The notes beneath the pieces were generated by a model. The model saw nothing but the letters and a program-made list of their open reading frames with translations, had not been told where the DNA came from and did not search any database. The position numbers and the translations under genes were made by a program. Source: an uncultured Gammaproteobacteria bacterium (lineage in GTDB: Bacteria; Patescibacteriota; Patescibacteriia; DYHP01). From it: 64,000 bases of DNA. The stretch is from contig CAZGDX010000001.1 of assembly GCA_964525225.1 (NCBI GenBank), positions 40,654-104,653 of the forward strand. Reading direction: 5' to 3'. Below are positions 10,203 through 61,316 of the stretch, piece after piece. Each line of letters starts with the position of its first letter. Position 1 is the first letter of the stretch.

Positions 10203-10377
10203 CTTATTAGTTTTTACGTAAATTTATTTTGTTTTCGTTTATTGTCTTGAAAAGCTGTAAATTGCGGCTTGTTTGGATAATTGGCGAAAATGGTTTTGCC
10301 AATTGGGTCGTTGAAAATTAACCCTCCATTTGGAAAATGGAGGCAAACAAAAAAGAAAAAAGAAGGAGGATGTTGAG

Positions 10378-12681
10378 ATGAGGCACGAGAACACGGATTT
10401 GAATAACGCGATTTGTTTGGGTGTTTTTGCCGCTGTCGCGACGATTGTTTTTTTCGTGATGTCCGGATGCATTCAGGAGGACCTGCGGCGGACTTGCGAC
10501 GATTCGGATTGTTGCGCCGAGGATTCCGATTGCGATGACGAGCTTGCGTGCACGACCGATTCTTGCGTGCGCGGAGAATGCATGTTTACTGCGGTTGACG
10601 AATTGTGTGCCGATGGCGAGGTTTGCAACCTTGCGAGCGGCTGCGTTACCGAAAATGAGTGCGACGATGACGGAGATTGTGAAGACGCCTTTGATTGTAC
10701 TGGTGATGACTGCATTGGTGGCGTCTGCATTCACGTGGCGGATTCCGACCTCTGCGAAGAGGACGAGGTTTGCAATGAGTCAAGCGGATGTGTCCGCGAG
10801 GCAGAGTGTGTTTTTGACCGCGACTGCGACGAGGAAGGCCCGGATTGCAATGCCGATCGGTGCGCGGACGGAACCTGCGAGCGCGAGCCCAGCGATGGGC
10901 TTTGCGCCGACGGCTATGTCTGTAACGCGAGCGGCATTTGTGTTTTGGGTCATGAAGACGAGTGTGACGACGACGAAGATTGCGAGGATGGTGTGGCTTG
11001 CACCGAAGACGATTGTAGCGTCGGCAGGTGCATTTTCCGTCCTATGGATAATCGCTGCGACTCGTTTGAAGAGTGCGATGTCGAGCTCGGATGCGTTTGG
11101 GAGAGTTGGGTGCAGTGCGAGGTGAGTGGCGAGTGCACGGACGGTGTGGGTTGCACACGCAATATGTGTATTGGCCATCTATGTGTGTTTGAGCCAATGG
11201 ATGAGTCCTGCGGCGAGAACGAGCGTTGCGACACAACGCTCGGATGCATTGCAATGCCGGAGTGCGATGACGATACGGATTGCGATGATGGACAAATTTG
11301 CACGACCGACACTTGCGACGATGGCGAGTGCGCCAATACTCCAGTGAATAGTCGATGCGATGACGGCAATTACTGTTCTGCTGATATCTGTTTGGCTTCT
11401 GGTGAGTGCGTTCATATGCCACTCGATAGCTACTGTGCCGCGGACGGCGAACATTGTTCGCTGGCTGCCGGCGGTTGCGTGGAGTGTACTTCCAACAGCC
11501 ACTGCGCGGATTTTGAGTTTTGCAACGCCGATTACGAGTGCGAGAGCGGATGTGGTTCGTGCGACGATGGTGTTTTTTGCACCAATGATATTTGCACAAT
11601 TTATGGTTGTACTCACACCGCGACAAACTCTCGATGCGGCAGTTCTTTGCCGTATTGCCACTCGACCCGCGGTTGCGTGGAATGCCTCACAGACGCTCAT
11701 TGCGCGAGCAATGAACACTGTGATGGTTATGTCTGCGTGGCAGACGCCGAGTGCGATGCTGATTCTGACTGCGACGATTCCATCGCCTGCACTACCAACG
11801 ATTGCGATACTGCCGGACGTTGTCTTTACACGCCGAACGACGCTTTTTGCGATGATGGCGTGTACTGCACAGTAGACGATTGTTCGCTTGCCGAGCGCGG
11901 TTGTACTCACACCGCGACAAACTCTCGATGCGGCAGTTCTTTGCCGTATTGCCACTCGACCCGCGGTTGCGTGGAATGCCTCACGGATTCTCACTGTGGG
12001 ACGGGCGAGTATTGCAGCAGTTATGTCTGCGTGGTCGATGCCGAGTGTGATTATGATGCCGATTGTTCTGACGGCGTGTACTGTACTGTGGACGACTGCG
12101 CGAGCGGTTTCTGCACGAACACGGCCGACAACACGCGTTGTTCCTATGGTTTGCTTTGCCATTTGACCGCTGGTTGCGTGGAGTGCAGGACAGACGCGGA
12201 TTGTAGTTCTTCCGAGAGCTGCGCCTCGGACCACACTTGTGTATCCGATATCTGCACTTACGATTCTGACTGTTCCGACGACATTGCCTGCACGGTGGAC
12301 GACTGCACGTCGGCTCACGATTGCACGCACACGGCGATGAATTCGCTGTGTCTGTCTGGACAGTATTGCGATCCTCTATACGGATGCCGCACGAGCACTG
12401 GTTCCGATCTGGACTACGATGGCATTCCGGACAGTTCCGATAACTGTCCGACAACGCCAAATCCCGGGCAGGCAGACATGGATTATGACCACATCGGCGA
12501 CGTGTGCGACTGTGATGTGGACGGCGACGGTTCTGTCGCGTTCATCTGTGGTGGCTGGGATTGTAACGACTACAATAACAGCGTGCATCCCGGCGCTTGG
12601 GAGGATTGCGACGACGGCATGGATAATGATTGTGATGACCTGATCGATGGTTACGATGCCGACTGCGGTTGCTGTTCCTGA
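10378..12681 (+). CDS. large secreted/lipoprotein-like Cys- and Asp-rich repeat protein with C-terminal thrombospondin type-3-like Ca-binding repeat and MopE-like (CxDxDxxxxPGAxExCDGxDNDCD) motif
   Basis: Start set at the ATG with AGGAGG at 7-nt spacing. Signal peptide ends in the lipobox-like VMSGC. About 10 repeats of the CxxDxDCxDxxxCTxDxCxxGxC...CxDGxxC pattern. C-terminus: DYDGIPDSSDNCPTTPNPGQADMDYDHIGDVCDCDVDGDG, then CNDYNNSVHPGAWEDCDDGMDNDCDD. GC about 55%. Confidence 0.8.
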   Translation: MRHENTDLNNAICLGVFAAVATIVFFVMSGCIQEDLRRTCDDSDCCAEDSDCDDELACTTDSCVRGECMFTAVDELCADGEVCNLASGCVTENECDDDGDCEDAFDCTGDDCIGGVCIHVADSDLCEEDEVCNESSGCVREAECVFDRDCDEEGPDCNADRCADGTCEREPSDGLCADGYVCNASGICVLGHEDECDDDEDCEDGVACTEDDCSVGRCIFRPMDNRCDSFEECDVELGCVWESWVQCEVSGECTDGVGCTRNMCIGHLCVFEPMDESCGENERCDTTLGCIAMPECDDDTDCDDGQICTTDTCDDGECANTPVNSRCDDGNYCSADICLASGECVHMPLDSYCAADGEHCSLAAGGCVECTSNSHCADFEFCNADYECESGCGSCDDGVFCTNDICTIYGCTHTATNSRCGSSLPYCHSTRGCVECLTDAHCASNEHCDGYVCVADAECDADSDCDDSIACTTNDCDTAGRCLYTPNDAFCDDGVYCTVDDCSLAERGCTHTATNSRCGSSLPYCHSTRGCVECLTDSHCGTGEYCSSYVCVVDAECDYDADCSDGVYCTVDDCASGFCTNTADNTRCSYGLLCHLTAGCVECRTDADCSSSESCASDHTCVSDICTYDSDCSDDIACTVDDCTSAHDCTHTAMNSLCLSGQYCDPLYGCRTSTGSDLDYDGIPDSSDNCPTTPNPGQADMDYDHIGDVCDCDVDGDGSVAFICGGWDCNDYNNSVHPGAWEDCDDGMDNDCDDLIDGYDADCGCCS

Positions 12682-12760: not shown

Positions 12761-12831
12761 TGTCATCCTCGGGGCAGCGAAGCGGATCCCTGGGATCCAC
12801 GTGGATTCCCCGAACAAGTCGGGGAATGACA
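12761..12831. repeat. GTCATCC hairpin element, copy A (about 71 bp, imperfect terminal inverted repeats tgtcatcc.../...ggaatgaca)
   Basis: Shares tgtcatcct.ggggc.gcg.agcggatcc.tgggatccacgtggatt with copy B at 20584 and the opening hairpin with copies at 53593 and 59846. Confidence 0.6.
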
Positions 12832-12993: not shown

Positions 12994-13671
12994 ATGGCAG
13001 GAAGAAGCGCGCTCGTGGCTCTATGTGTTCTTTTCGTTTTTGGTACCATGGGTTCCAGTTGCGCGGTTCAGCCGCCACCGGAGCCGGTGGAGTGCTATTC
13101 GGACAGCGATTGTTATGACGGCGTGAATTGCACTGATGATTATTGCTTCCGCAATTTTTGTGAGAATTACGAGAATGATGAAAATTGTCCGGTAAACGAG
13201 TGGTGCGATATGCGCCGCGGATGTATCAGCAACGATGTCCCGCCCCCTGTTGATTGCCATAGCGATATCGATTGTTTTGATGGAGTTTATTGCACCTGGG
13301 ACCTGTGCGAACAGGGCGAATGCGGAAATTACGACAGCGGAATTTGCGGAGTCGGGTACTATTGCGATTCGCTTTTGGATTGCCAGCCGATCGTCACGGT
13401 TTACGACTCTGATGGTGATGGTATTGAGGATTCTATAGACAACTGTTGGGAATTTTATAACCCGTGGCAGGAAGATATGGATTGGGACGGTTGGGGTGAC
13501 GCTTGCGATTGCGACGCGGATGGCGATTGGTACGACGACGCTGTTTGGTGTGGCGGATTGGATTGCAACGATTACGATTTGTATGTCAACCCCAGCGCTG
13601 TTGAGTGGTGTAACGATTGGATTGACAATGACTGTGATGGGTATATTGATTATTACGATTACTGCTGGTAA
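12994..13671 (+). CDS. smaller secreted paralog of the Cys-rich repeat protein (same repeat type, TSP3-like and MopE-like C-terminal motifs)
   Basis: Signal peptide with a GSSC lipobox-like site. Carries DSDGDGIEDSIDNCWEFYNPWQEDMDWDGWGDACDCDADGD, then CNDYDLYVNPSAVEWCNDWIDNDCDG. Confidence 0.75.
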   Translation: MAGRSALVALCVLFVFGTMGSSCAVQPPPEPVECYSDSDCYDGVNCTDDYCFRNFCENYENDENCPVNEWCDMRRGCISNDVPPPVDCHSDIDCFDGVYCTWDLCEQGECGNYDSGICGVGYYCDSLLDCQPIVTVYDSDGDGIEDSIDNCWEFYNPWQEDMDWDGWGDACDCDADGDWYDDAVWCGGLDCNDYDLYVNPSAVEWCNDWIDNDCDGYIDYYDYCW

Positions 13672-13934: not shown

Positions 13935-14456
13935 ATGGATTTAAGACATCACATCCGCGAAGTTCCGGATTGGCCGAAATTAGGTATCCGTTTTTACGAC
14001 ATAACCACGCTTCTGGAAAATCCCGAAGCGTTGAAATATGCGATAGATAAATTAGCCGAGCCATTCCAAAATCAGAAAATAGATAAAGTTGTCGGCATTG
14101 ACGCGCGCGGTTTTTTGCTCGCATCCGCGGTTGCGTACATTTTGGGTTCAGGCGTTTCACTTGTCAGGAAAAAAGGAAAATTGCCGTATAAAACAATCTC
14201 CCGCGATTATACTTTGGAATACGCGTCAAACACCGTGGAAATGCACGAAGACACTATTAAACAGGGAGAAAGGGTGATTTTAATAGATGATTTAATTGCC
14301 ACAGGAGGCACCGCTTGCGCCGCGGTTGAGCTTATAGAACAAATGGGCGGACAAATTGTCGGAGTTGGATTTTTGGTGGATTTACCGTTTTTGGGAGGAA
14401 TAGAGCGATTATCAAAGTACAGTCCGTTTTCATTGGTAAAGTATCAAAACGAGTAA
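13935..14456 (+). CDS. apt: adenine phosphoribosyltransferase
   Basis: VILIDDLIATGGT PRPP-binding motif; 173 aa. Confidence 0.9.
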   Translation: MDLRHHIREVPDWPKLGIRFYDITTLLENPEALKYAIDKLAEPFQNQKIDKVVGIDARGFLLASAVAYILGSGVSLVRKKGKLPYKTISRDYTLEYASNTVEMHEDTIKQGERVILIDDLIATGGTACAAVELIEQMGGQIVGVGFLVDLPFLGGIERLSKYSPFSLVKYQNE

Positions 14457-14542
14457 GGAACAAAACTCCCACTAATCCATACCACTAATCCGCACTAATT
14501 ATTCGTGAGTATTGGTGGCAGAAATTAGTGGAAGTCTAGTAC
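14457..14542. repeat. 85-bp palindromic intergenic element, copy 1 (between apt and mtnP)
   Basis: Ends aacaaaactcccactaat / attagtggaagtctagtac with a cgcactaattattcgtg core; four further copies in the window. Confidence 0.7.
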
Positions 14543-14556
14543 ATAATTTATAGACT

Positions 14557-17248: not shown

Positions 17249-18055
17249 CTATGCGCTTTTTATTTCTTTATAAATTCTTTCTATTTTTTTTGCTTTTTTA
17301 GTTTTGGGATCAATCTGTATCAGGACAGCGTTTAGTATTGCCGGCCATTCATCCGCAATTTCATATTTATGTTTTGTCCCCTCTGTATAAGATTTTACAA
17401 TACTTTCAGGATTTTCGCCAATTATGGAGTTTTTCGCGCCCGTCATTCCGACATCCGTGATGTAGGCGGTTGATTTATCAAACATTTGTTCGTCAGCCGT
17501 CGGTACGTGAGTATGTGTTCCGACCAGCGCCGAGATTCTTCCTTTGGCATAATGCAGAAGCGCTATTTTTTCCGATGTTGCTTCAGCGTGAAAATCTACA
17601 AATATTCCGTTCAGTTTTTCTTTCTTGTATTTTTCGAGTATCTTATCAAGAGTTTTAAAAGGGGATTCGTATTCTTCTTGGATGAAGACTTGCCCGTTTA
17701 AATTTATCACCAAAAGTTTATACTTCCCACTCTTGATTATTTTTTCTCCATCTCCAGTTTTGTTTTTATGGTTTGCCGGGCGGATAATAATGTTATTTAG
17801 CGCCGTGTCGGCAAACACTTTTTCTGCCTCATCTTTTTTGTCAAAAATATGATTGCCGGAGGTAAAGAATTGCGCGCCGGCATCAAGCGCGTCCGCCACT
17901 GTTTTTCTGGTAATTCCAAGCCCGTGCGCCAAGTTTTCCGCATTGGCGATGATAAAATTTGGCTTATATTTTTTAATCAAAGAAGGCAGGGCTTTGCGCA
18001 CCGTCTGCCTTCCGATTTTTCCGATTAAATCTCCGATAAAGAGAATTTTTAACAT
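17249..18055 (-). CDS. ymdB: YmdB-like metallophosphoesterase (2',3'-cyclic-nucleotide phosphodiesterase family)
   Basis: MLKILFIGDLIGKIGR...GNH metallophosphatase motifs; sits immediately downstream of rny, as in many bacteria. Confidence 0.85.
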   Translation of the reverse strand: MLKILFIGDLIGKIGRQTVRKALPSLIKKYKPNFIIANAENLAHGLGITRKTVADALDAGAQFFTSGNHIFDKKDEAEKVFADTALNNIIIRPANHKNKTGDGEKIIKSGKYKLLVINLNGQVFIQEEYESPFKTLDKILEKYKKEKLNGIFVDFHAEATSEKIALLHYAKGRISALVGTHTHVPTADEQMFDKSTAYITDVGMTGAKNSIIGENPESIVKSYTEGTKHKYEIADEWPAILNAVLIQIDPKTKKAKKIERIYKEIKSA

Positions 18056-18062
18056 AAATAAT

Positions 18063-18148
18063 GTACTAGACTTCCACTAATTAATATCACGAATTCGCAC
18101 TAATAATTCGTGCGTATTCGTGGTTTAGATTTGTGGAAGTTTTGTTCC
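18063..18148. repeat. 85-bp palindromic intergenic element, copy 2 (between rny and ymdB)
   Basis: gtactagacttccactaat...cacgaattcgcactaataattcgtgcg...agatttgtggaagttttgttcc. Confidence 0.7.
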
Positions 18149-18157
18149 TTTTATCAC

Positions 18158-20583: not shown

Positions 20584-20745
20584 TGTCATCCTTGGGGCCG
20601 CGGAGCGGATCCTTGGGATCCACGTGGATTTTTGCCGGCGGACTTTGGGTCACCAGGCACGTCTCCGTATTTACTTTGGGGTGTCGGGCACCTCTCCTTG
20701 GTCTTTGCGGCACACCGCGGACAACGGAGCGGTACCCGACATCAT
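20584..20745. repeat. GTCATCC hairpin element, copy B (longer, about 160 bp, 61% GC)
   Basis: The first 55 bp are near-identical to copy A; the remainder is a unique GC-rich sequence with no obvious ORF. Confidence 0.55.
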
Positions 20746-20815: not shown

Positions 20816-22480
<1,665 letters not shown>

Positions 22481-22485
22481 TTAAT

Positions 22486-22587
22486 GGGTACTAAACTTCC
22501 ACAAATCTATGCCACGAATACGCACGAATTAGAAAATTAATTTATTAGTGCGAATTAGCGATAGAAATTAGTGGGAGTCTAGTTCCT
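22486..22587. repeat. 85-bp palindromic intergenic element, copy 3 (fills the groES-groEL spacer)
   Basis: actaaacttccacaaatctatgccacgaatacgcacgaattag...attagtgcgaattagcgatagaaattagtgggagtctag. Confidence 0.7.
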
Positions 22588-22875
22588 TTATTCAATAATT
22601 GCCAAGACGTCCGATTCCGAAATAAGTAATAATACTTCGCCGTCTGTTTTTATTTCGTCCGGACTGTATTTTTTAAACATAACAATATCGTCAATTTTGA
22701 CGGACATCGGAGCTTTGTTGCCGTTTTCAAGCGTCCTCCCCGGGCCTGTGGCAATAATTTTTCCTTTTTCCGGTTTTTCCTTTGCTGTATCGGGCAAAAG
22801 GATTCCGGATTTCGTGGCCGCTTCTTCAGCGAGCGGCTTGACCAAAATTCGGTCGCCTAATGGACGTATGTTCAT
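22588..22875 (-). CDS. groS: co-chaperonin GroES
   Basis: MNIRPLGDRILVKP... Start moved to the internal Met; about 95 aa, typical of GroES. Confidence 0.88.
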   Translation of the reverse strand: MNIRPLGDRILVKPLAEEAATKSGILLPDTAKEKPEKGKIIATGPGRTLENGNKAPMSVKIDDIVMFKKYSPDEIKTDGEVLLLISESDVLAIIE

Positions 22876-28197: not shown

Positions 28198-28284
28198 GGG
28201 ATACAACTTCCACTAATTTTTTTCACCAATAAGCACGAATAATTAGTGCGGATTAGTGATATAGATTTGTGGGAGTCTTGTTCC
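28198..28284. repeat. 85-bp palindromic intergenic element, copy 4 (12 bp upstream of nusA start)
   Basis: gatacaacttccactaat...cacgaataattagtgcggattagtg...agatttgtgggagtcttgttcc. Confidence 0.7.
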
Positions 28285-28449
28285 TTTTTAATTAGTGCTT
28301 AATAAAAATGACCAGTCCGCAGAGACCAGTCCTTATGTTTTTATAATACTATAAATTGAAATAAATGTCAAGCGATTGACAAAAGTTGAGTTTTTTGATA
28401 AGTTGATTTAATGTTCGTTAAAATAAAAAAAAGAAAGAAGGGAAAGAAA

Positions 28450-30898: not shown

Positions 30899-30985
30899 TT
30901 GTACAAAACTTCCACAAATCTATGCCACTAATCCGCACTAATTATTCGTGAGTATTTGTGATAAAAATTAGTGGAAGTCTATTTC
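30899..30985. repeat. 85-bp palindromic intergenic element, copy 5 (10 bp upstream of methyltransferase start)
   Basis: gtacaaaacttccacaaatctatgccactaatccgcactaattattcgtgagtatttgtgataaaaattagtggaagtctatttc. Confidence 0.7.
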
Positions 30986-30990
30986 ATTTA

Positions 30991-31248
30991 TTATTTTACC
31001 CCTTGGAATATCGGACCGAAAAACCACATTATTATATCATCCAAACTTCCGCTTACCCAGATAAAACAGATTAAGATTATTAAAATTCCGAGAAGTTTGT
31101 AAAAAGTGTGCGAACCGCCGAAAGTTCCCAGATATTTTTCCGCGAACGGCACGCTGCCGACATTGTACAAAAACCAGGTGGCTTTCCAGACAAGCAAAAA
31201 TCCCAAGACCATTCCGCCGATTCCCAAAATGTATTTTATAATGCCCAT
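30991..31248 (-). CDS. small membrane protein, hypothetical
   Basis: Two TM helices; 85 aa. Confidence 0.4.
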   Translation of the reverse strand: MGIIKYILGIGGMVLGFLLVWKATWFLYNVGSVPFAEKYLGTFGGSHTFYKLLGILIILICFIWVSGSLDDIIMWFFGPIFQGVK

Positions 31249-36874: not shown

Positions 36875-36989
36875 CTTATAAGGTACAAAACCTCCACAGA
36901 TTTCTATCACAGATTTTCACAGATAAAAAAATTAATCTGTGCGTATCTGTGAAAAATATCTGCGGTGGTCTGGTACCGATAAAACGTTT

Positions 36990-49249: not shown

Positions 49250-49800
49250 TCCTTGAAATAAGAAAACCGGATAGCTGCCCCACACCTTTTGGCTTTTATT
49301 ATTTAAGTTTCGTCTATGTTCTATGTTTATATCTTAAAAAGCATGCAAAGGCCCTAGTCCAATTAAAGAGAAGAATAAGATGGTCGCTAGATGAAAGCTA
49401 AAAGGTGTGGGGAGGAAAGTCCGAACACCATTCTTCGCAGCAATGCGGGGCTTAGAGGTAGTCGCTAACGGCGACGGGGAGTAAATAATTTTGTTTTATC
49501 GCGGATTTGCGTTTATAGCGCAAACAAGCGAATGCAGTTTTAAGAAGCCCACGGATAGTGTCTTGAAAAAGGTTTGTTTTTCTTGTAGTAATATAAGAAA
49601 GATAAGCAACAGAAAATATACCGCCGAATTCCCGATTTTTCGGGAATGGCAAGGTTGAAATCGTGAGGTAAGAGCTCACGCGTAACCGCAGCGATGCGGC
49701 ATGTGGCAAACACCTACCCGGTGCAAGGTTTAAAAACCGCTTGAGCTTTATAGAAATATAAAGCCCAGAGAAATAGCTATCCACCCCTCACACGGAAAGC
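49250..49800 (+). ncRNA. rnpB: RNase P RNA (bacterial type), with an unusually long insertion in the P3 region
   Basis: Universally conserved GGAGGAAAGUCCG (P4 5' strand), ACAGAAAAUAUACCGCC, GGUAAGAGCUCACG and CACCUACCCGGUGCAAGG blocks in the canonical order. P1 candidate pairing ggatagct(49282)/agctatcc(49778). Ends are approximate. Confidence 0.75.
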
Positions 49801-50138
49801 GATTGTGTGCAACGCTTGATATTATTGGCGATATTTTAAAATGTCACTTAGAAATATTAAATGTTCAAATTATTGCATACTTTCGTTTTTTCGCTTTCCG
49901 TGTGAAGGGGGACAGAATTCGGCTTATAGGTTATCTTATATTTAAGGAACAAAAATACGCTTGAGTACTCAAGCGTATTTTTGTTTGAACACCAACTGTG
50001 TACAATTCCAATTGACACAAGTCCAAAAAAATGGTATAATATATGTGTAAGCTCGAAAAGGGTTTACTAAAACAAAAAAATAGAAATGCCCCAATTTAAT
50101 CCGCGTATAGGCGTGGAACATCTGTGGCAAAAACAAAA

Positions 50139-53592: not shown

Positions 53593-53680
53593 TGTCATCC
53601 CGAGCGAAGCCGAGGGATCCCTTAAACATTGTCGAAGCGATTCCTCCACTCACTGCGGTTCGGTCGGAAAGACAATGTGA
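53593..53680. repeat. GTCATCC hairpin element, copy C
   Basis: tgtcatcccgagcgaagccgagggatccc..., with an internal acattgtc/gacaatgt inverted repeat. Confidence 0.55.
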
Positions 53681-59845: not shown

Positions 59846-59914
59846 TGTCATTCCGAGCCACAGCGAGGAATCTCACCCCGAGGTATGAGATCCTTCACTT
59901 CGTTCAGGATGACG
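59846..59914. repeat. GTCATCC hairpin element, copy D (terminal inverted repeats tgtcattccgagc / gttcaggatgacg)
   Basis: The reverse complement reads gtcatcctgaacgaagtgaaggatctc; it ends 17 bp before the aspS start. Confidence 0.55.
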
Positions 59915-59930
59915 TTAATTGATTATTACT

Positions 59931-61316
59931 ATGAGAACTTTAGCGCGCGACACAATCAAGATGGAGGGAAAAGAAGTGCAAATATCCGGATGGGTGCATA
60001 ACCGCCGCGATATGGGAAAAATTATTTTTATTGACTTCCGCGACCGGAGCGGAATTTTGCAGCTTGTTTTTGCGCCGAGCGAACTTTCGGAGCGGGCGTA
60101 TCAAGCCGCCAAAGGTTTGCGTTCAGAATTTGTCATTAAAGTTAAAGGCAATGTAGTGGCGCGTTCGCCAAAAGCGGTGAATCCCAATTTGCCGACCGGA
60201 AAAATTGAAATTTTGGTGAAGGACTTGGAAATTTTAAACGAAGCGAAGACAACACCGTTTGAACTGGATAAAGATACTCGCGTCATCAGCGAAGATGTTC
60301 GCTTGAAATACAGATACTTGGATTTGAGGAGCGAACGAATGAGAAACAATCTGGAGCTTCGCCATAATGTAATAAAATTTTTCCGCGATTATTTTTCCGC
60401 CGAAGGATTTTTTGAAATAGAGACCCCGTTTTTGACCAAGGGGACTCCTGAAGGTTCAAGAGAGTATATCGTCCCTTCGCGTCTTCATCCGGAAAATTTT
60501 TATGTTTTGCCTCAGTCACCGCAGCAATTTAAACAGCTTTTGATGGTTGCCGGGATGGAAAAATATTTTCAGGTGGCGCGGTGTTTTCGCGACGAAGACC
60601 AGCGCGGTGATCGCCAGCCGGAATTCACCCAGCTTGACGTGGAAATGTCTTTTGTCGAAGAAGAAGATATTATTTCTTTTATGGAAAAAGCGATAGTGGA
60701 AATGGTGAAAAAAGTCGCTTCGGAAAAAAAGATTTTACAGACCCCGTTTCCGCGCGTCACTTACGCCGACGCGATAAAAAAATACAAGTCCGACAAGCCG
60801 GATATGCGCAAAAACAAAGAAGATAAAAATGAATTGGCTTTTTGCTGGGTGGTGGATTTTCCGATGTTTGAAAAAGGGGATGACGGAAAAATTAACGCGT
60901 CACACCATCCTTTTACCGCGCCAAAAGACAGAGACCTCAAAAATCTTTCCAAGACCCCGCTCAAAGTCCGCGCCAAGGCATACGATATTGTTCTAAACGG
61001 TTATGAAATCGGCGGCGGAAGCGTTAGAATCCACAATCGTGATTTGCAAAACAAAATTTTTGAAATTTTAGGGCTTAAAGAAAAAGAAATCAAAGAAAGA
61101 TTCGGGCACATTCTTGAGGCGTTTGAATACGGCGCGCCTCCGCACGGCGGAATTGCCCTCGGTTTGGACCGGCTTTTAATGATTTTGCGCGGAGAAGAAA
61201 GCATTCGCGAAGTTATTGCGTTTCCGAAAACCGGAGAAGCGGAGGATTTAATGATGGGCGCTCCTTCCGAACTTCCAAACAAACAGTTAAGGGAGGCGCA
61301 TATAAAAACTGCATAA
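59931..61316 (+). CDS. aspS: aspartyl-tRNA synthetase, compact form without GAD insertion
   Basis: LPQSPQQFKQLLMVAG and class II motifs; about 460 aa. Start set at Met MRTLARDTI; the ORF extends to 59919 with TTG. Confidence 0.9.
   Translation: MRTLARDTIKMEGKEVQISGWVHNRRDMGKIIFIDFRDRSGILQLVFAPSELSERAYQAAKGLRSEFVIKVKGNVVARSPKAVNPNLPTGKIEILVKDLEILNEAKTTPFELDKDTRVISEDVRLKYRYLDLRSERMRNNLELRHNVIKFFRDYFSAEGFFEIETPFLTKGTPEGSREYIVPSRLHPENFYVLPQSPQQFKQLLMVAGMEKYFQVARCFRDEDQRGDRQPEFTQLDVEMSFVEEEDIISFMEKAIVEMVKKVASEKKILQTPFPRVTYADAIKKYKSDKPDMRKNKEDKNELAFCWVVDFPMFEKGDDGKINASHHPFTAPKDRDLKNLSKTPLKVRAKAYDIVLNGYEIGGGSVRIHNRDLQNKIFEILGLKEKEIKERFGHILEAFEYGAPPHGGIALGLDRLLMILRGEESIREVIAFPKTGEAEDLMMGAPSELPNKQLREAHIKTA

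What the first reader, a model, noticed from the sequence alone, without database searches (positions are those of the whole stretch)
12761..12831. Four-copy family of GC-rich elements that open with a conserved GTCATCC...GGATCC hairpin (also 20584-20745, 53593-53680, 59846-59914)
All four begin TGTCAT(C/T)CC, then a 13-15-nt loop containing GCGAAG/GCGGAG, then GGATCC (stem ATCC/GGAT). A and B share about 50 bp including an ATCCACGTGGAT palindrome; A and D have terminal inverted repeats (TGTCATCC.../...GGAATGACA; TGTCATTCCGAGC/GTTCAGGATGACG); B has a unique 61% GC 100-bp tail. All lie in intergenic spacers just after terminators, and D ends 17 bp before the aspS start. In a 40% GC genome these look like MITE-like mobile hairpin elements or a family of small structured RNAs with a common 5' stem-loop.
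Basis: seen in the sequence. Interest (0 to 1): 0.55.

Follow-up and report, generated by a model that had tools for sequence, protein, structure and literature searches.

The report
Hairpin target repeats of Ssn nucleases
The four GC-rich elements are real copies of a DNA hairpin repeat already described in many bacteria (CGTC-tagged REPs, also called Ssn-related motifs), which small GIY-YIG nucleases recognise and cut in single-stranded DNA, so this is a new example of a known system.

Summary
The window carries four elements built from seven half-sites, and an eighth half-site lies just beyond the right edge. Each half-site is an unpaired YGTC tag, an imperfect hairpin whose stem starts A-T, T-A, and a C after the stem. 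A, C and D are head-to-head dimers.

The exact consensus GTCATYCYGARCGAAGYGARGRATC occurs in MAGs of more than 15 phyla. Its stem covaries cleanly.

In other genomes the same hairpins bracket a roughly 93-aa single-domain GIY-YIG gene. Of 80 such genes chosen by protein alone, 46 have the hairpin upstream, 42 downstream and 31 on both sides. These proteins are 46% identical to Neisseria SsnA.

Both parts are published:
- Di Nocera 2013 described the repeats as CGTC-tagged REPs.
- Chenal 2025 described Ssn-related motifs as the ssDNA targets of Ssn nucleases.

A covariance model built only from hairpins flanking ssn genes in other metagenomes ranks the seven window half-sites as its top seven hits.

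Not shown:
- No ssn gene was found in the 77 kb available.
- Only one of the seven half-sites fits the published SRM search string. The rest are a subtype with a tandem G·A internal loop or a long interior.

Verdict: a new member of a known kind, of low to moderate interest.

The parts
12761..12831 (.). Element A: head-to-head dimer, TGTCAT...ATGACA, with central palindrome ATCCACGTGGAT
   Evidence: Both arms are among the top 7 covariance-model hits.
12762..12789 (+). Half-site A-L: GTCATCCTCGGGGCAGCGAAGCGGATCC (tag TGTC, outer stem ATCC/GGAT, long interior containing GCGAAGC, C after the stem)
   Evidence: R1 gives 12.8 bits, E 0.73, the same range as validated Neisseria NTS.
12803..12830 (-). 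Half-site A-R: GTCATTCCCCGACTTGTTCGGGGAATCC (9-bp perfect stem, 5-nt loop, tail CCA). NTS/CGTC-1-like.
   Evidence: 14.8 bits. It is the only window site that fits the published SRM string (1 hit against 0.09 expected).
20584..20631 (+). Element B, left part: half-site B-L (20585-20612, GTCATCCTTGGGGCCGCGGAGCGGATCC) plus the spacer palindrome shared with A
   Evidence: R1 gives 12.8 bits. 43 of 47 bases are identical to A.
20680..20743 (.). B tail: a separate 64-nt GC-rich hairpin of unknown identity. It is not a recognisable half-site.
   Evidence: z -4.1 on plus, -6.6 on minus. No Rfam hit.
53593..53674 (.). Element C: head-to-head dimer that folds as one long hairpin
53594..53620 (+). Half-site C-L: GTCATCCCGAGCGAAGCCGAGGGATCC (G·A type with one bulged C)
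   Evidence: R1 gives 33.0 bits, E 1.4e-5.
53637..53673 (-). Half-site C-R: GTCTTTCCGACCGAACCGCAGTGAGTGGAGGAATCGC (degenerate, long interior)
   Evidence: R1 gives 13.6 bits, E 0.48.
59846..59914 (.). Element D: head-to-head dimer that ends 16 nt before the aspS ATG at 59931
   Evidence: Fold z-scores are -4.3 and -4.1.
59847..59872 (+). Half-site D-L: GTCATTCCGAGCCACAGCGAGGAATC (G·A type, 4-nt loop)
   Evidence: R1 gives 40.0 bits, E 3e-7.
59889..59913 (-). Half-site D-R: GTCATCCTGAACGAAGTGAAGGATC (canonical G·A type, tag CGTC)
   Evidence: R1 gives 42.5 bits, E 8e-8. The exact 25-mer class is found in more than 15 phyla.

Best explanation
The elements are Ssn-related motifs (SRM), equivalent to the CGTC-tagged REP superfamily. 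These are short DNA hairpins that are recognised when the DNA is single-stranded.

Each half-site has three parts:
- an unpaired 5' tag, (T/C)GTC;
- a stem that starts A-T, T-A and covaries, in the commonest subtype interrupted by a conserved tandem G·A/A·G;
- a C straight after the stem.

Published work on Neisseria, N. elongata, N. wadsworthii and Wolbachia shows that a roughly 94-aa single-domain GIY-YIG nuclease (Ssn, cd10448) binds the hairpin on that strand only. [quoted passage not shown] It does not act on dsDNA, on RNA or on the reverse strand. ssn genes are typically bracketed by such hairpins (SRM-ssn-SRM).

A, C and D are gene-less head-to-head dimers of these sites, and B is a single site.

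Shown here: family membership by sequence, structure and covariation; the gene-hairpin association in other genomes; and the homology of those genes to SsnA.

Inferred: that an Ssn enzyme acts on these particular copies. If it does, the result would be ssDNA cleavage next to them, for example of incoming or replicating DNA. How the copies spread is also inferred; the possibilities are an IS-like or homing-like SRM-ssn-SRM unit, or domestication.
For: Distribution and structure:
- Variant counts covary. ATTCT..AGAAT occurs 38 times, ATCCT..AGGAT 32, ATTCC..GGAAT 16 and ATCCC..GGGAT 5, while mixed forms occur 1-2 times each.
- On 53 hairpins, 96.8% of cells are paired against 79% in shuffles, and 67 cells show double-sided changes against 14. 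On 133 distinct hairpins the figures are 99.2% and 133 against 28 (that alignment was fitted to the model).

Association with the gene:
- Unbiased neighbour clustering gave one family abutting the hairpins, a roughly 93-aa GIY-YIG protein (PF01541, E 1e-15 to 1e-17). In all four cases it lies between a '+' half-site upstream and a '-' half-site downstream.
- In the protein-first test on 80 metagenome loci, 46 have the upstream site, 42 the downstream site and 31 both.
- The upstream site ends a median of 48 nt before the start. The downstream site begins a median of 16 nt after the stop.
- Chenal et al. report 71% of homologues with at least one SRM and 42% with SRMs on both sides.

Homology to SsnA:
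- These proteins are 46% identical to the gonococcal SsnA orthologue (E 9e-18 by tblastn, 1e-25 pairwise).
- That orthologue is 94 aa, has Y6, Y17 and E64 at the published catalytic positions, and is flanked by NTS repeats.

The window copies:
- Model R1 was built only from hairpins flanking ssn genes in other metagenomes. It ranks the 7 window half-sites as its top 7 hits: three at E <= 1e-5 and four at 12.8-14.8 bits.
- Validated Neisseria NTS score 11-16 bits with the same model.
- All 7 half-sites keep the GTC tag and the C after the stem. In Nm SsnA these are the determinants of cleavage and of binding (PMC11893778).

The architecture also fits Di Nocera 2013 (PMC3733652): tag CGTC or TGTC, a stem of 8-9 starting with AT, a tail CCA (A-R and the L207 copy), mostly head-to-head dimers, and no transposase.
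Against: - No ssn gene was found in the window or in the 13 kb of the same genome fetched beyond its ends. Action of an Ssn on these copies is therefore unproven.
- Only A-R fits the published SRM search string. The G·A-type consensus itself fails it.
- Four half-sites (A-L, A-R, B-L, C-R) score only E 0.25-0.73 on their own. R1's E-values are rough.
- Specificity for the G·A subtype has never been tested biochemically.
- Hairpin covariation cannot by itself separate an ssDNA role from an RNA role.
Confidence: 0.85

Rival explanations
1. REP/REPIN elements mobilised by a RAYT (HUH Y1 transposase), as in Pseudomonas and E. coli.
For: The layout is the same: a tagged hairpin, inverted dimers and an extragenic position. 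A RAYT-like ORF (PF01797, 27.5 bits, with HLH and YDH motifs) lies 0.3-0.6 kb beyond the window's left edge.
Against: That ORF carries its own GTAG-tagged palindrome, GTAGGGGACGCAGATCTGCGTCCCCTAC, in two copies. It is not flanked by GTCAT hairpins. No Y1 transposase recurs next to the hairpins in 120 loci. Di Nocera 2013 found no RAYT flanked by CGTC repeats. The tag here is GTC, not GTAG.
Confidence: 0.04
2. Classic MITEs: deletion derivatives of an insertion sequence, moved by a DDE transposase that recognises the terminal inverted repeats.
For: A, C and D have terminal inverted repeats (TGTCAT.../...ATGACA) and are 69-82 bp long. Gene-bearing and gene-less versions exist.
Against: No direct repeat abuts the ends of A, C or D. 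No DDE transposase is associated. The internal gene is a 93-aa nuclease domain only. Single half-sites such as B and the L207 copy are common. The covarying intra-arm stem with a strand-specific G·A loop is not expected for a dsDNA inverted repeat bound by a transposase.
Confidence: 0.03
3. Structured RNA elements, such as 3'-UTR stabilisers, terminators or sRNAs, acting at the transcript level.
For: The elements lie just downstream of terminator-like hairpins and upstream of genes. They fold well and the stem covaries. RNA roles have been proposed for REPs (PMC3733652).
Against: No Rfam family reaches threshold; only generic miRNA-hairpin models score, below it. Head-to-head dimers put the G·A hairpin on opposite strands, so one transcript carries only one functional arm. 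Nm SsnA does not bind the RNA version (PMC11893778). The elements lie after the terminators, not within the transcription units.
Confidence: 0.05

Closest known systems
Ssn-related motifs (SRM) and the Neisseria NTS (oriented dRS3), with the Ssn GIY-YIG ssDNA nucleases (Chenal et al., Nat Commun 2025, PMC11893778)
   Same: Both have the (C/T)GTC tag, a hairpin starting AT, and a C after the stem. Both flank roughly 94-aa single-domain GIY-YIG genes on both sides. The associated proteins are 46% identical to SsnA, with the same catalytic positions. A-R fits the published search string.
   Different: Six of the 7 window half-sites, and the pan-bacterial consensus GTCATYCYGAGCGAAGCGARGRATC, do not fit the published string, because of a tandem G·A internal loop or a long interior. 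No ssn gene is seen in the DNA available for this genome. No biochemistry exists for this subtype.
CGTC-tagged REPs, families CGTC-1 to -4 (Di Nocera, De Gregorio, Rocco, BMC Genomics 2013, PMC3733652). These include Neisseria dRS3 and Rickettsia RPE-4 and RPE-6.
   Same: Both have the tag CGTC or TGTC, a stem of 8-9 positions starting with A-T, T-A, and a short tail (CCA in A-R and in the L207 copy). Both are mostly head-to-head dimers in extragenic positions with no transposase association.
   Different: Loops there are 4-5 nt and stems are perfect. Here most copies have a GAA triloop plus a G·A/A·G loop, or a long interior. That survey covered 5 phyla; this family reaches more than 15, including Patescibacteria-type MAGs.
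REP/REPIN-RAYT systems (GTAG-tagged)
   Same: Both are tagged ssDNA hairpins in inverted doublets, with a single small nuclease-type gene bracketed by its own repeats.
   Different: The tag is GTAG there and GTC here. The enzyme fold is HUH Y1 there and GIY-YIG here. RAYT is not associated with these copies.
IS200/IS605 subterminal hairpins and integron attC sites
   Same: Both show strand-specific recognition of folded single-stranded DNA with extrahelical or non-canonical features.
   Different: The enzymes differ (Y1 transposase, tyrosine recombinase). There, both ends lie on one strand. There is no sequence similarity.

Membership tests
Ssn-related motif (SRM/NTS), Chenal 2025 | Unpaired, oriented 5' tag HGTC immediately before the palindrome (needed for cleavage in Nm) | tested here: met
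   All 7 half-sites carry it: TGTC in six and CGTC in D-R.
Ssn-related motif (SRM/NTS), Chenal 2025 | Hairpin-forming imperfect palindrome of 20-50 nt | tested here: met
   Covariation on independent hairpins is. The 7 window sites are the top 7 hits of model R1.
Ssn-related motif (SRM/NTS), Chenal 2025 | Cytosine immediately after the palindrome (the most critical base for binding in Nm) | tested here: met
   All 7 half-sites end ...AT|C.
Ssn-related motif (SRM/NTS), Chenal 2025 | Fit to the published search string HGTCWYN(0-2)YYVSBRHN(0-5)WNVSBRGN(0-2)RNCYNB | tested here: inconclusive
   Only A-R matches (1 hit against 0.09 expected). The consensus that flanks ssn homologues also fails the string. 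This suggests the string, built from 29 genomes, is too narrow rather than that the sites lie outside the family.
Ssn-related motif (SRM/NTS), Chenal 2025 | Motif flanks genes of the Ssn family (single-domain GIY-YIG of about 94 aa, homologous to Nm SsnA at E < 1e-10 over at least 75% of its length) | tested here: met
   This holds at family level. Four of 4 gene-bearing genome loci show it. Of 80 metagenome loci, 46 have the motif upstream, 42 downstream and 31 both. PF01541 is confirmed. Identity to Ng SsnA is 46% (E 9e-18 and 1e-25), with Y6, Y17 and E64 conserved.
Ssn-related motif (SRM/NTS), Chenal 2025 | An ssn gene in the same genome | tested here: inconclusive
   None is present in the 64-kb window or in the 13 kb fetched beyond it. 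The rest of the genome was not available.
Ssn-related motif (SRM/NTS), Chenal 2025 | Bound and cut only as ssDNA, on one strand, a few nt upstream of the motif | not testable with these tools
   This needs purified enzyme and oligonucleotides.
CGTC-tagged REP (Di Nocera 2013) | Tag CGTC or TGTC, a stem of 8-9 bp whose first two pairs are A-T and T-A, and a short 3' tail | tested here: met
   All half-sites start (T/C)GTC-AT. A-R has a 9-bp stem and tail CCA. The L207 copy has an 8-bp stem and tail CCA. G·A-type stems have 9 positions.
CGTC-tagged REP (Di Nocera 2013) | Loop of 4-5 nt | tested here: inconclusive
   A-R has 5 nt and D-L 4 nt. D-R and C-L have the GAA triloop. A-L, B-L and C-R have long interiors.
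CGTC-tagged REP (Di Nocera 2013) | Predominantly head-to-head dimers (tags outside), extragenic | tested here: met
   A, C and D are head-to-head dimers. All copies are intergenic.
REP/REPIN-RAYT | GTAG tag, and the repeats flank a RAYT gene | tested here: not met
   The tag is GTC. The nearby RAYT-like ORF is flanked by a different, GTAG-tagged palindrome. No Y1 transposase appears among recurrent neighbours.
MITE | Terminal inverted repeats plus a target-site duplication, and a cognate IS with a transposase | tested here: not met
   Inverted repeats are present, but no direct repeat abuts the ends of A, C or D. No transposase family is associated.
Rfam RNA families | Match at the gathering score | tested here: not met
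   There is no hit in the window. Canonical copies elsewhere hit only generic hairpin (miRNA) models below threshold.

The most novel reading that the evidence does not exclude
The tandem-G·A form (GTCATYCYGAGCGAAGCGARGRATC) may be a distinct and very widespread specificity class of the Ssn/SRM system. It reaches Patescibacteria-type genomes and is missed by the published SRM search string. In this genome the sites may be orphans with no resident ssn gene. In that case they would be relics of a selfish SRM-ssn-SRM unit that invades hairpin dimers and then loses its gene, rather than sites of a domesticated host function. The truncated 5'-arm duplications beside many copies could be repair scars of cleavage at the hairpin.
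Probability: 0.3. Interest if true: 0.45.

Novelty: new member of a known kind. Interest (0 to 1): 0.25.

Why it matters
The repeat class was catalogued in 2013, and its partner enzyme and ssDNA-cleavage mechanism were published in 2025. The finding therefore does not open a new question.

It adds three modest points:
- The system is present in a small, 40%-GC uncultured genome, at about one element per 15 kb.
- The commonest environmental form of the motif carries a conserved tandem G·A internal loop and escapes the published search string. Genome surveys that use that string will therefore undercount SRMs.
- Ssn enzymes paired with this form would be candidates for new ssDNA-cutting specificities, which is the application the 2025 paper highlights.

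Tried and rejected
- Rfam at gathering score on the window, and at E-value threshold on canonical copies and on B, gave only generic hairpin or miRNA models below threshold.
- Full-text searches for the DNA words and for the peptides they would encode (VILSEAKDL, CAQNDK) found nothing.
- Searches for GIY-YIG with MITE, for YhbQ or UPF0213, and for COG2827 were uninformative.
- The 2024 MITE survey (PMC11602168) and the RepRanger paper do not mention the family or GIY-YIG.
- Strain comparison for presence or absence failed. The three other contigs carrying the GroEL gene are 99.98-100% identical to the window.
- Neighbour clustering found no recurrent transposase.
- A 98-aa ORF beyond the left edge had a weak GIY-YIG hit (E 0.039). 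Read directly, it has no GIY or YIG motifs, so I rejected it.
- The PDB holds no Ssn structure, only distant UPF0213 proteins 1ZG2 and 1YWL.
- My first idea was a RAYT-type REP. I dropped it once the GIY-YIG link appeared and the nearby RAYT-like gene proved to carry its own GTAG palindrome.
- My second idea, a previously unreported GIY-YIG analogue of REP-RAYT, is superseded by Chenal et al. 2025.

Full report
**1. What is in the window**

Read on both strands, the repeated unit is a half-site of about 26 nt rather than a 70-160-bp element. The seven half-sites are:

| Half-site | Coordinates | Sequence |
|---|---|---|
| A-L | 12762-12789 + | GTCATCCTCGGGGCAGCGAAGCGGATCC |
| A-R | 12803-12830 - | GTCATTCCCCGACTTGTTCGGGGAATCC |
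| B-L | 20585-20612 + | GTCATCCTTGGGGCCGCGGAGCGGATCC |
| C-L | 53594-53620 + | GTCATCCCGAGCGAAGCCGAGGGATCC |
| C-R | 53637-53673 - | GTCTTTCCGACCGAACCGCAGTGAGTGGAGGAATCGC |
| D-L | 59847-59872 + | GTCATTCCGAGCCACAGCGAGGAATC |
| D-R | 59889-59913 - | GTCATCCTGAACGAAGTGAAGGATC |

A, C and D are head-to-head dimers with the GTC tags outside, and each can fold as one long hairpin (D has z = -4.3). B has one half-site, the spacer palindrome it shares with A (43 of 47 bases identical), and an unrelated 64-nt GC-rich hairpin at 20680-20743.

The pattern GTCATYCC-N10-18-GGAWYC gives 3 hits against 0.01 expected. The elements are intergenic. Terminator-like hairpins precede A, C and D, but none before B passes the scan's criteria.

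**2. The family is very widespread and its hairpin covaries**

I scanned one genome per species with GTCATYCYGARCGAAGYGARGRATC, a pattern that D-R matches exactly. About 0.07 chance hits are expected in 596 Gb. By record title, the hits are in MAGs of:
- Acidobacteriota, Bacteroidota, Ignavibacteria and Chlorobi;
- Nitrospirota, Planctomycetota, Chloroflexota, Gemmatimonadota and Armatimonadota;
- Bdellovibrionota, Omnitrophota, Desulfobacteria, Gammaproteobacteria and Bacillota;
- Saccharibacteria, Gracilibacteria and Parcubacteria.

The variants covary. ATTCT..AGAAT occurs 38 times, ATCCT..AGGAT 32, ATTCC..GGAAT 16 and ATCCC..GGGAT 5. GAGCGAAGCGA alternates with GAACGAAGTGA. Non-complementary mixtures occur once or twice each.

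The fold is A-T, T-A, Y-R, C-G, Y-R, then a conserved tandem G·A/A·G, then R-Y, C-G and a GAA loop. From my own knowledge, GCGAAGC is the very stable DNA mini-hairpin described by Hirao and colleagues.

On 53 hairpins taken from other metagenomes, 96.8% of cells pair against 79% in shuffles. There are 67 cells with double-sided changes against 14 in shuffles, and 6 of 7 pairs show compensatory changes. A larger alignment, fitted to the model, gives 99.2% paired and 133 against 28.

The G·A/A·G loop is not palindromic in duplex DNA. The structure is therefore strand-specific, which points to recognition of a folded single strand.

**3. The partner gene**

I clustered all ORFs in the 120 loci. 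Only one family directly abuts the hairpins: a GIY-YIG protein of about 93 aa (PF01541, E 1e-15 to 1e-17). It occurs in a Saccharibacteria, a Cyclobacteriaceae, a Gracilibacteria and an Ignavibacteriales MAG. In all four, the ORF lies between a '+' half-site upstream and a '-' half-site downstream.

I then tested the link from the protein side. I fetched 80 metagenome loci by protein similarity alone and counted hairpins around the genes:
- 46 have an upstream '+' half-site, 42 a downstream '-' half-site and 31 both.
- The upstream site ends a median of 48 nt before the start, and the downstream site begins a median of 16 nt after the stop.
- In 11 loci the stop codon is the TGA of ...ATGAC.

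**4. It is already described**

Di Nocera et al. 2013 (PMC3733652) defined CGTC-tagged REPs. Their features are a tag CGTC, often TGTC; a stem of 8-9 bp starting with A-T, T-A; a loop of 4-5 nt; and a tail CCA. They form mostly head-to-head dimers, occur in five phyla and have no associated transposase. Neisseria dRS3 and Rickettsia RPE-4 and RPE-6 are members.

Chenal et al. 2025 (PMC11893778) showed the following:
- The oriented dRS3 (NTS, CGTCATTCCCGCGMAVGCGGGAATCYRG) and related Ssn-related motifs flank ssnA, a 94-aa single-domain GIY-YIG gene (cd10448).
- 71% of ssnA homologues have at least one SRM nearby, and 42% have SRMs on both sides.
- SsnA binds the hairpin only as ssDNA. It does not bind dsDNA, RNA or the reverse strand.
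- It cuts a few nucleotides upstream of the motif.
- The three bases before the stem govern cleavage, and the C after the stem governs binding.
- In N. meningitidis the system restricts transformation by DNA that carries NTS repeats.
- The authors note the IS-like SRM-ssnA-SRM layout and propose domestication.

My association figures agree with theirs.

**5. Tying the window to that system**

Four results link the window copies to the Ssn/SRM system:
- The L083 GIY-YIG protein hits a gonococcal chromosome at 46% identity (E 9e-18). The ORF there is 94 aa, has Y6, Y17 and E64 at the published catalytic positions, and is flanked by NTS repeats. The pairwise E-value with the L005 protein is 1e-25.
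- Covariance model R1 was built only from hairpins flanking such genes in other metagenomes. Run with filters off, it ranks the seven window half-sites as its top seven hits. D-R scores 42.5 bits, D-L 40.0 and C-L 33.0 (E <= 1e-5). A-R scores 14.8, C-R 13.6, B-L 12.8 and A-L 12.8.
- The validated Neisseria NTS score 11-16 bits with the same model. The low scores of A and B are therefore typical of the perfect-stem NTS-like form.
- All seven half-sites keep the GTC tag and the C after the stem.

An eighth half-site lies about 500 nt beyond the right edge of the window (L207 1917-1963, tail CCA).

**6. What does not fit or is not shown**

- No ssn gene is present in the window or in the 13 kb fetched beyond its ends.
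- Only A-R fits the published SRM search string, and the G·A-type consensus itself fails it. I read this as a limit of a string derived from 29 genomes, because the same consensus brackets clear SsnA homologues.
- No enzyme has been tested on the G·A subtype.
- I could not compare filled and empty sites, because all contigs found are the same strain.

**7. Rivals**

- **RAYT-type REP.** The tag is wrong. No Y1 transposase recurs beside the hairpins. The RAYT-like ORF just outside the window carries its own GTAG palindrome and no GTCAT hairpin.
- **Classic MITE.** There is no target-site duplication and no transposase.
- **RNA element.** There is no Rfam match, and dimers place the functional strand of the two arms on opposite strands. 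A secondary effect on transcripts is not excluded.

**8. Verdict**

The elements are new members of the published CGTC-REP/SRM family, the ssDNA hairpin targets of Ssn GIY-YIG nucleases. Most belong to a G·A-loop subtype that the published search string misses. Interest is low to moderate.

Noticed in passing
window 14455-14551, 18050-18156, 22477-22588, 28199-28294, 30901-30998, 36883-36926: A second, unrelated family of AT-rich palindromic repeats about 95 nt long (ACTTCCACTAATC...CACTAAT...ATTAGTGGAAGT). It has six copies at 66-91% identity to each other, all in intergenic spacers.
   Followed up: no
L205 11880-12203 (-), about 0.3-0.6 kb beyond the window's left edge on the same contig: A RAYT-like Y1 transposase ORF (PF01797, 27.5 bits, with HLH and YDH motifs). 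Two copies of a perfect GTAG-tagged palindrome, GTAGGGGACGCAGATCTGCGTCCCCTAC, accompany it: one inside the ORF (12092-12119) and one upstream (12370-12397). There is no copy of this palindrome in the window.
   Followed up: partly
L207 1917-1963 (-), equivalent to about 64494-64540 just beyond the window's right edge: A fifth element of the GTCAT family. It is a single half-site with stem ATTCCCGA/TCGGGAAT, a branched interior and tail CCA, lying 7 nt before the ATG of a glycosyltransferase gene.
   Followed up: yes
window 20680-20743: A GC-rich 64-nt hairpin in the tail of element B (z -6.6 on the minus strand, -4.1 on plus). Two roughly 30-nt direct repeats (TTTGGGTCACCAGGCACGTCTCC / TTTGGGGTGTCGGGCACCTCTCC) precede or overlap it. 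There is no Rfam match, and its identity is unknown.
   Followed up: partly
window 49367-49942 (+): The RNase P RNA (bacterial class A) is 576 nt against a 367-position model. It carries two insertions of about 110-125 nt and scores 103.4 bits, barely above the gathering score of 100.
   Followed up: no
L015, L034, L049, L054, L069, L072, L075, L089, L111, L117 (upstream of the matched half-site); L171 3325-3490: Many copies in other genomes have one or more truncated direct copies of the flank plus the 5' arm (GTCATYCYGAGC), 19-25 nt upstream of the full half-site. The truncation falls at the hairpin loop. These may be slippage products or repair scars.
   Followed up: no
L010, L019, L056, L080, L093, L109: Hairpin dimers nested inside an outer inverted repeat, GGCTGCGGAAAAA...TTTTTCCGCAGCC. 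This occurs in Acidobacteriota MAGs and also in a Saccharimonadales MAG. It recalls the target palindromes that Di Nocera 2013 reported around some CGTC-1 dimers.
   Followed up: no
L124-L203 (11 of 80 loci): In 11 ssn homologues the reading frame runs into the downstream half-site and stops at the TGA of ...ATGAC. The repeat therefore supplies the last 7-8 codons and the stop (example L020 ...RDSSLRSE*).
   Followed up: partly
window 10330-12681 and 12994-13671 (+): Two cysteine- and aspartate-rich repeat proteins (783 and 225 aa) flank element A. They have internal DNA repeats of about 50-100 nt, and the second has a MopE-type metal-binding motif. The larger one has no Pfam match.
   Followed up: no
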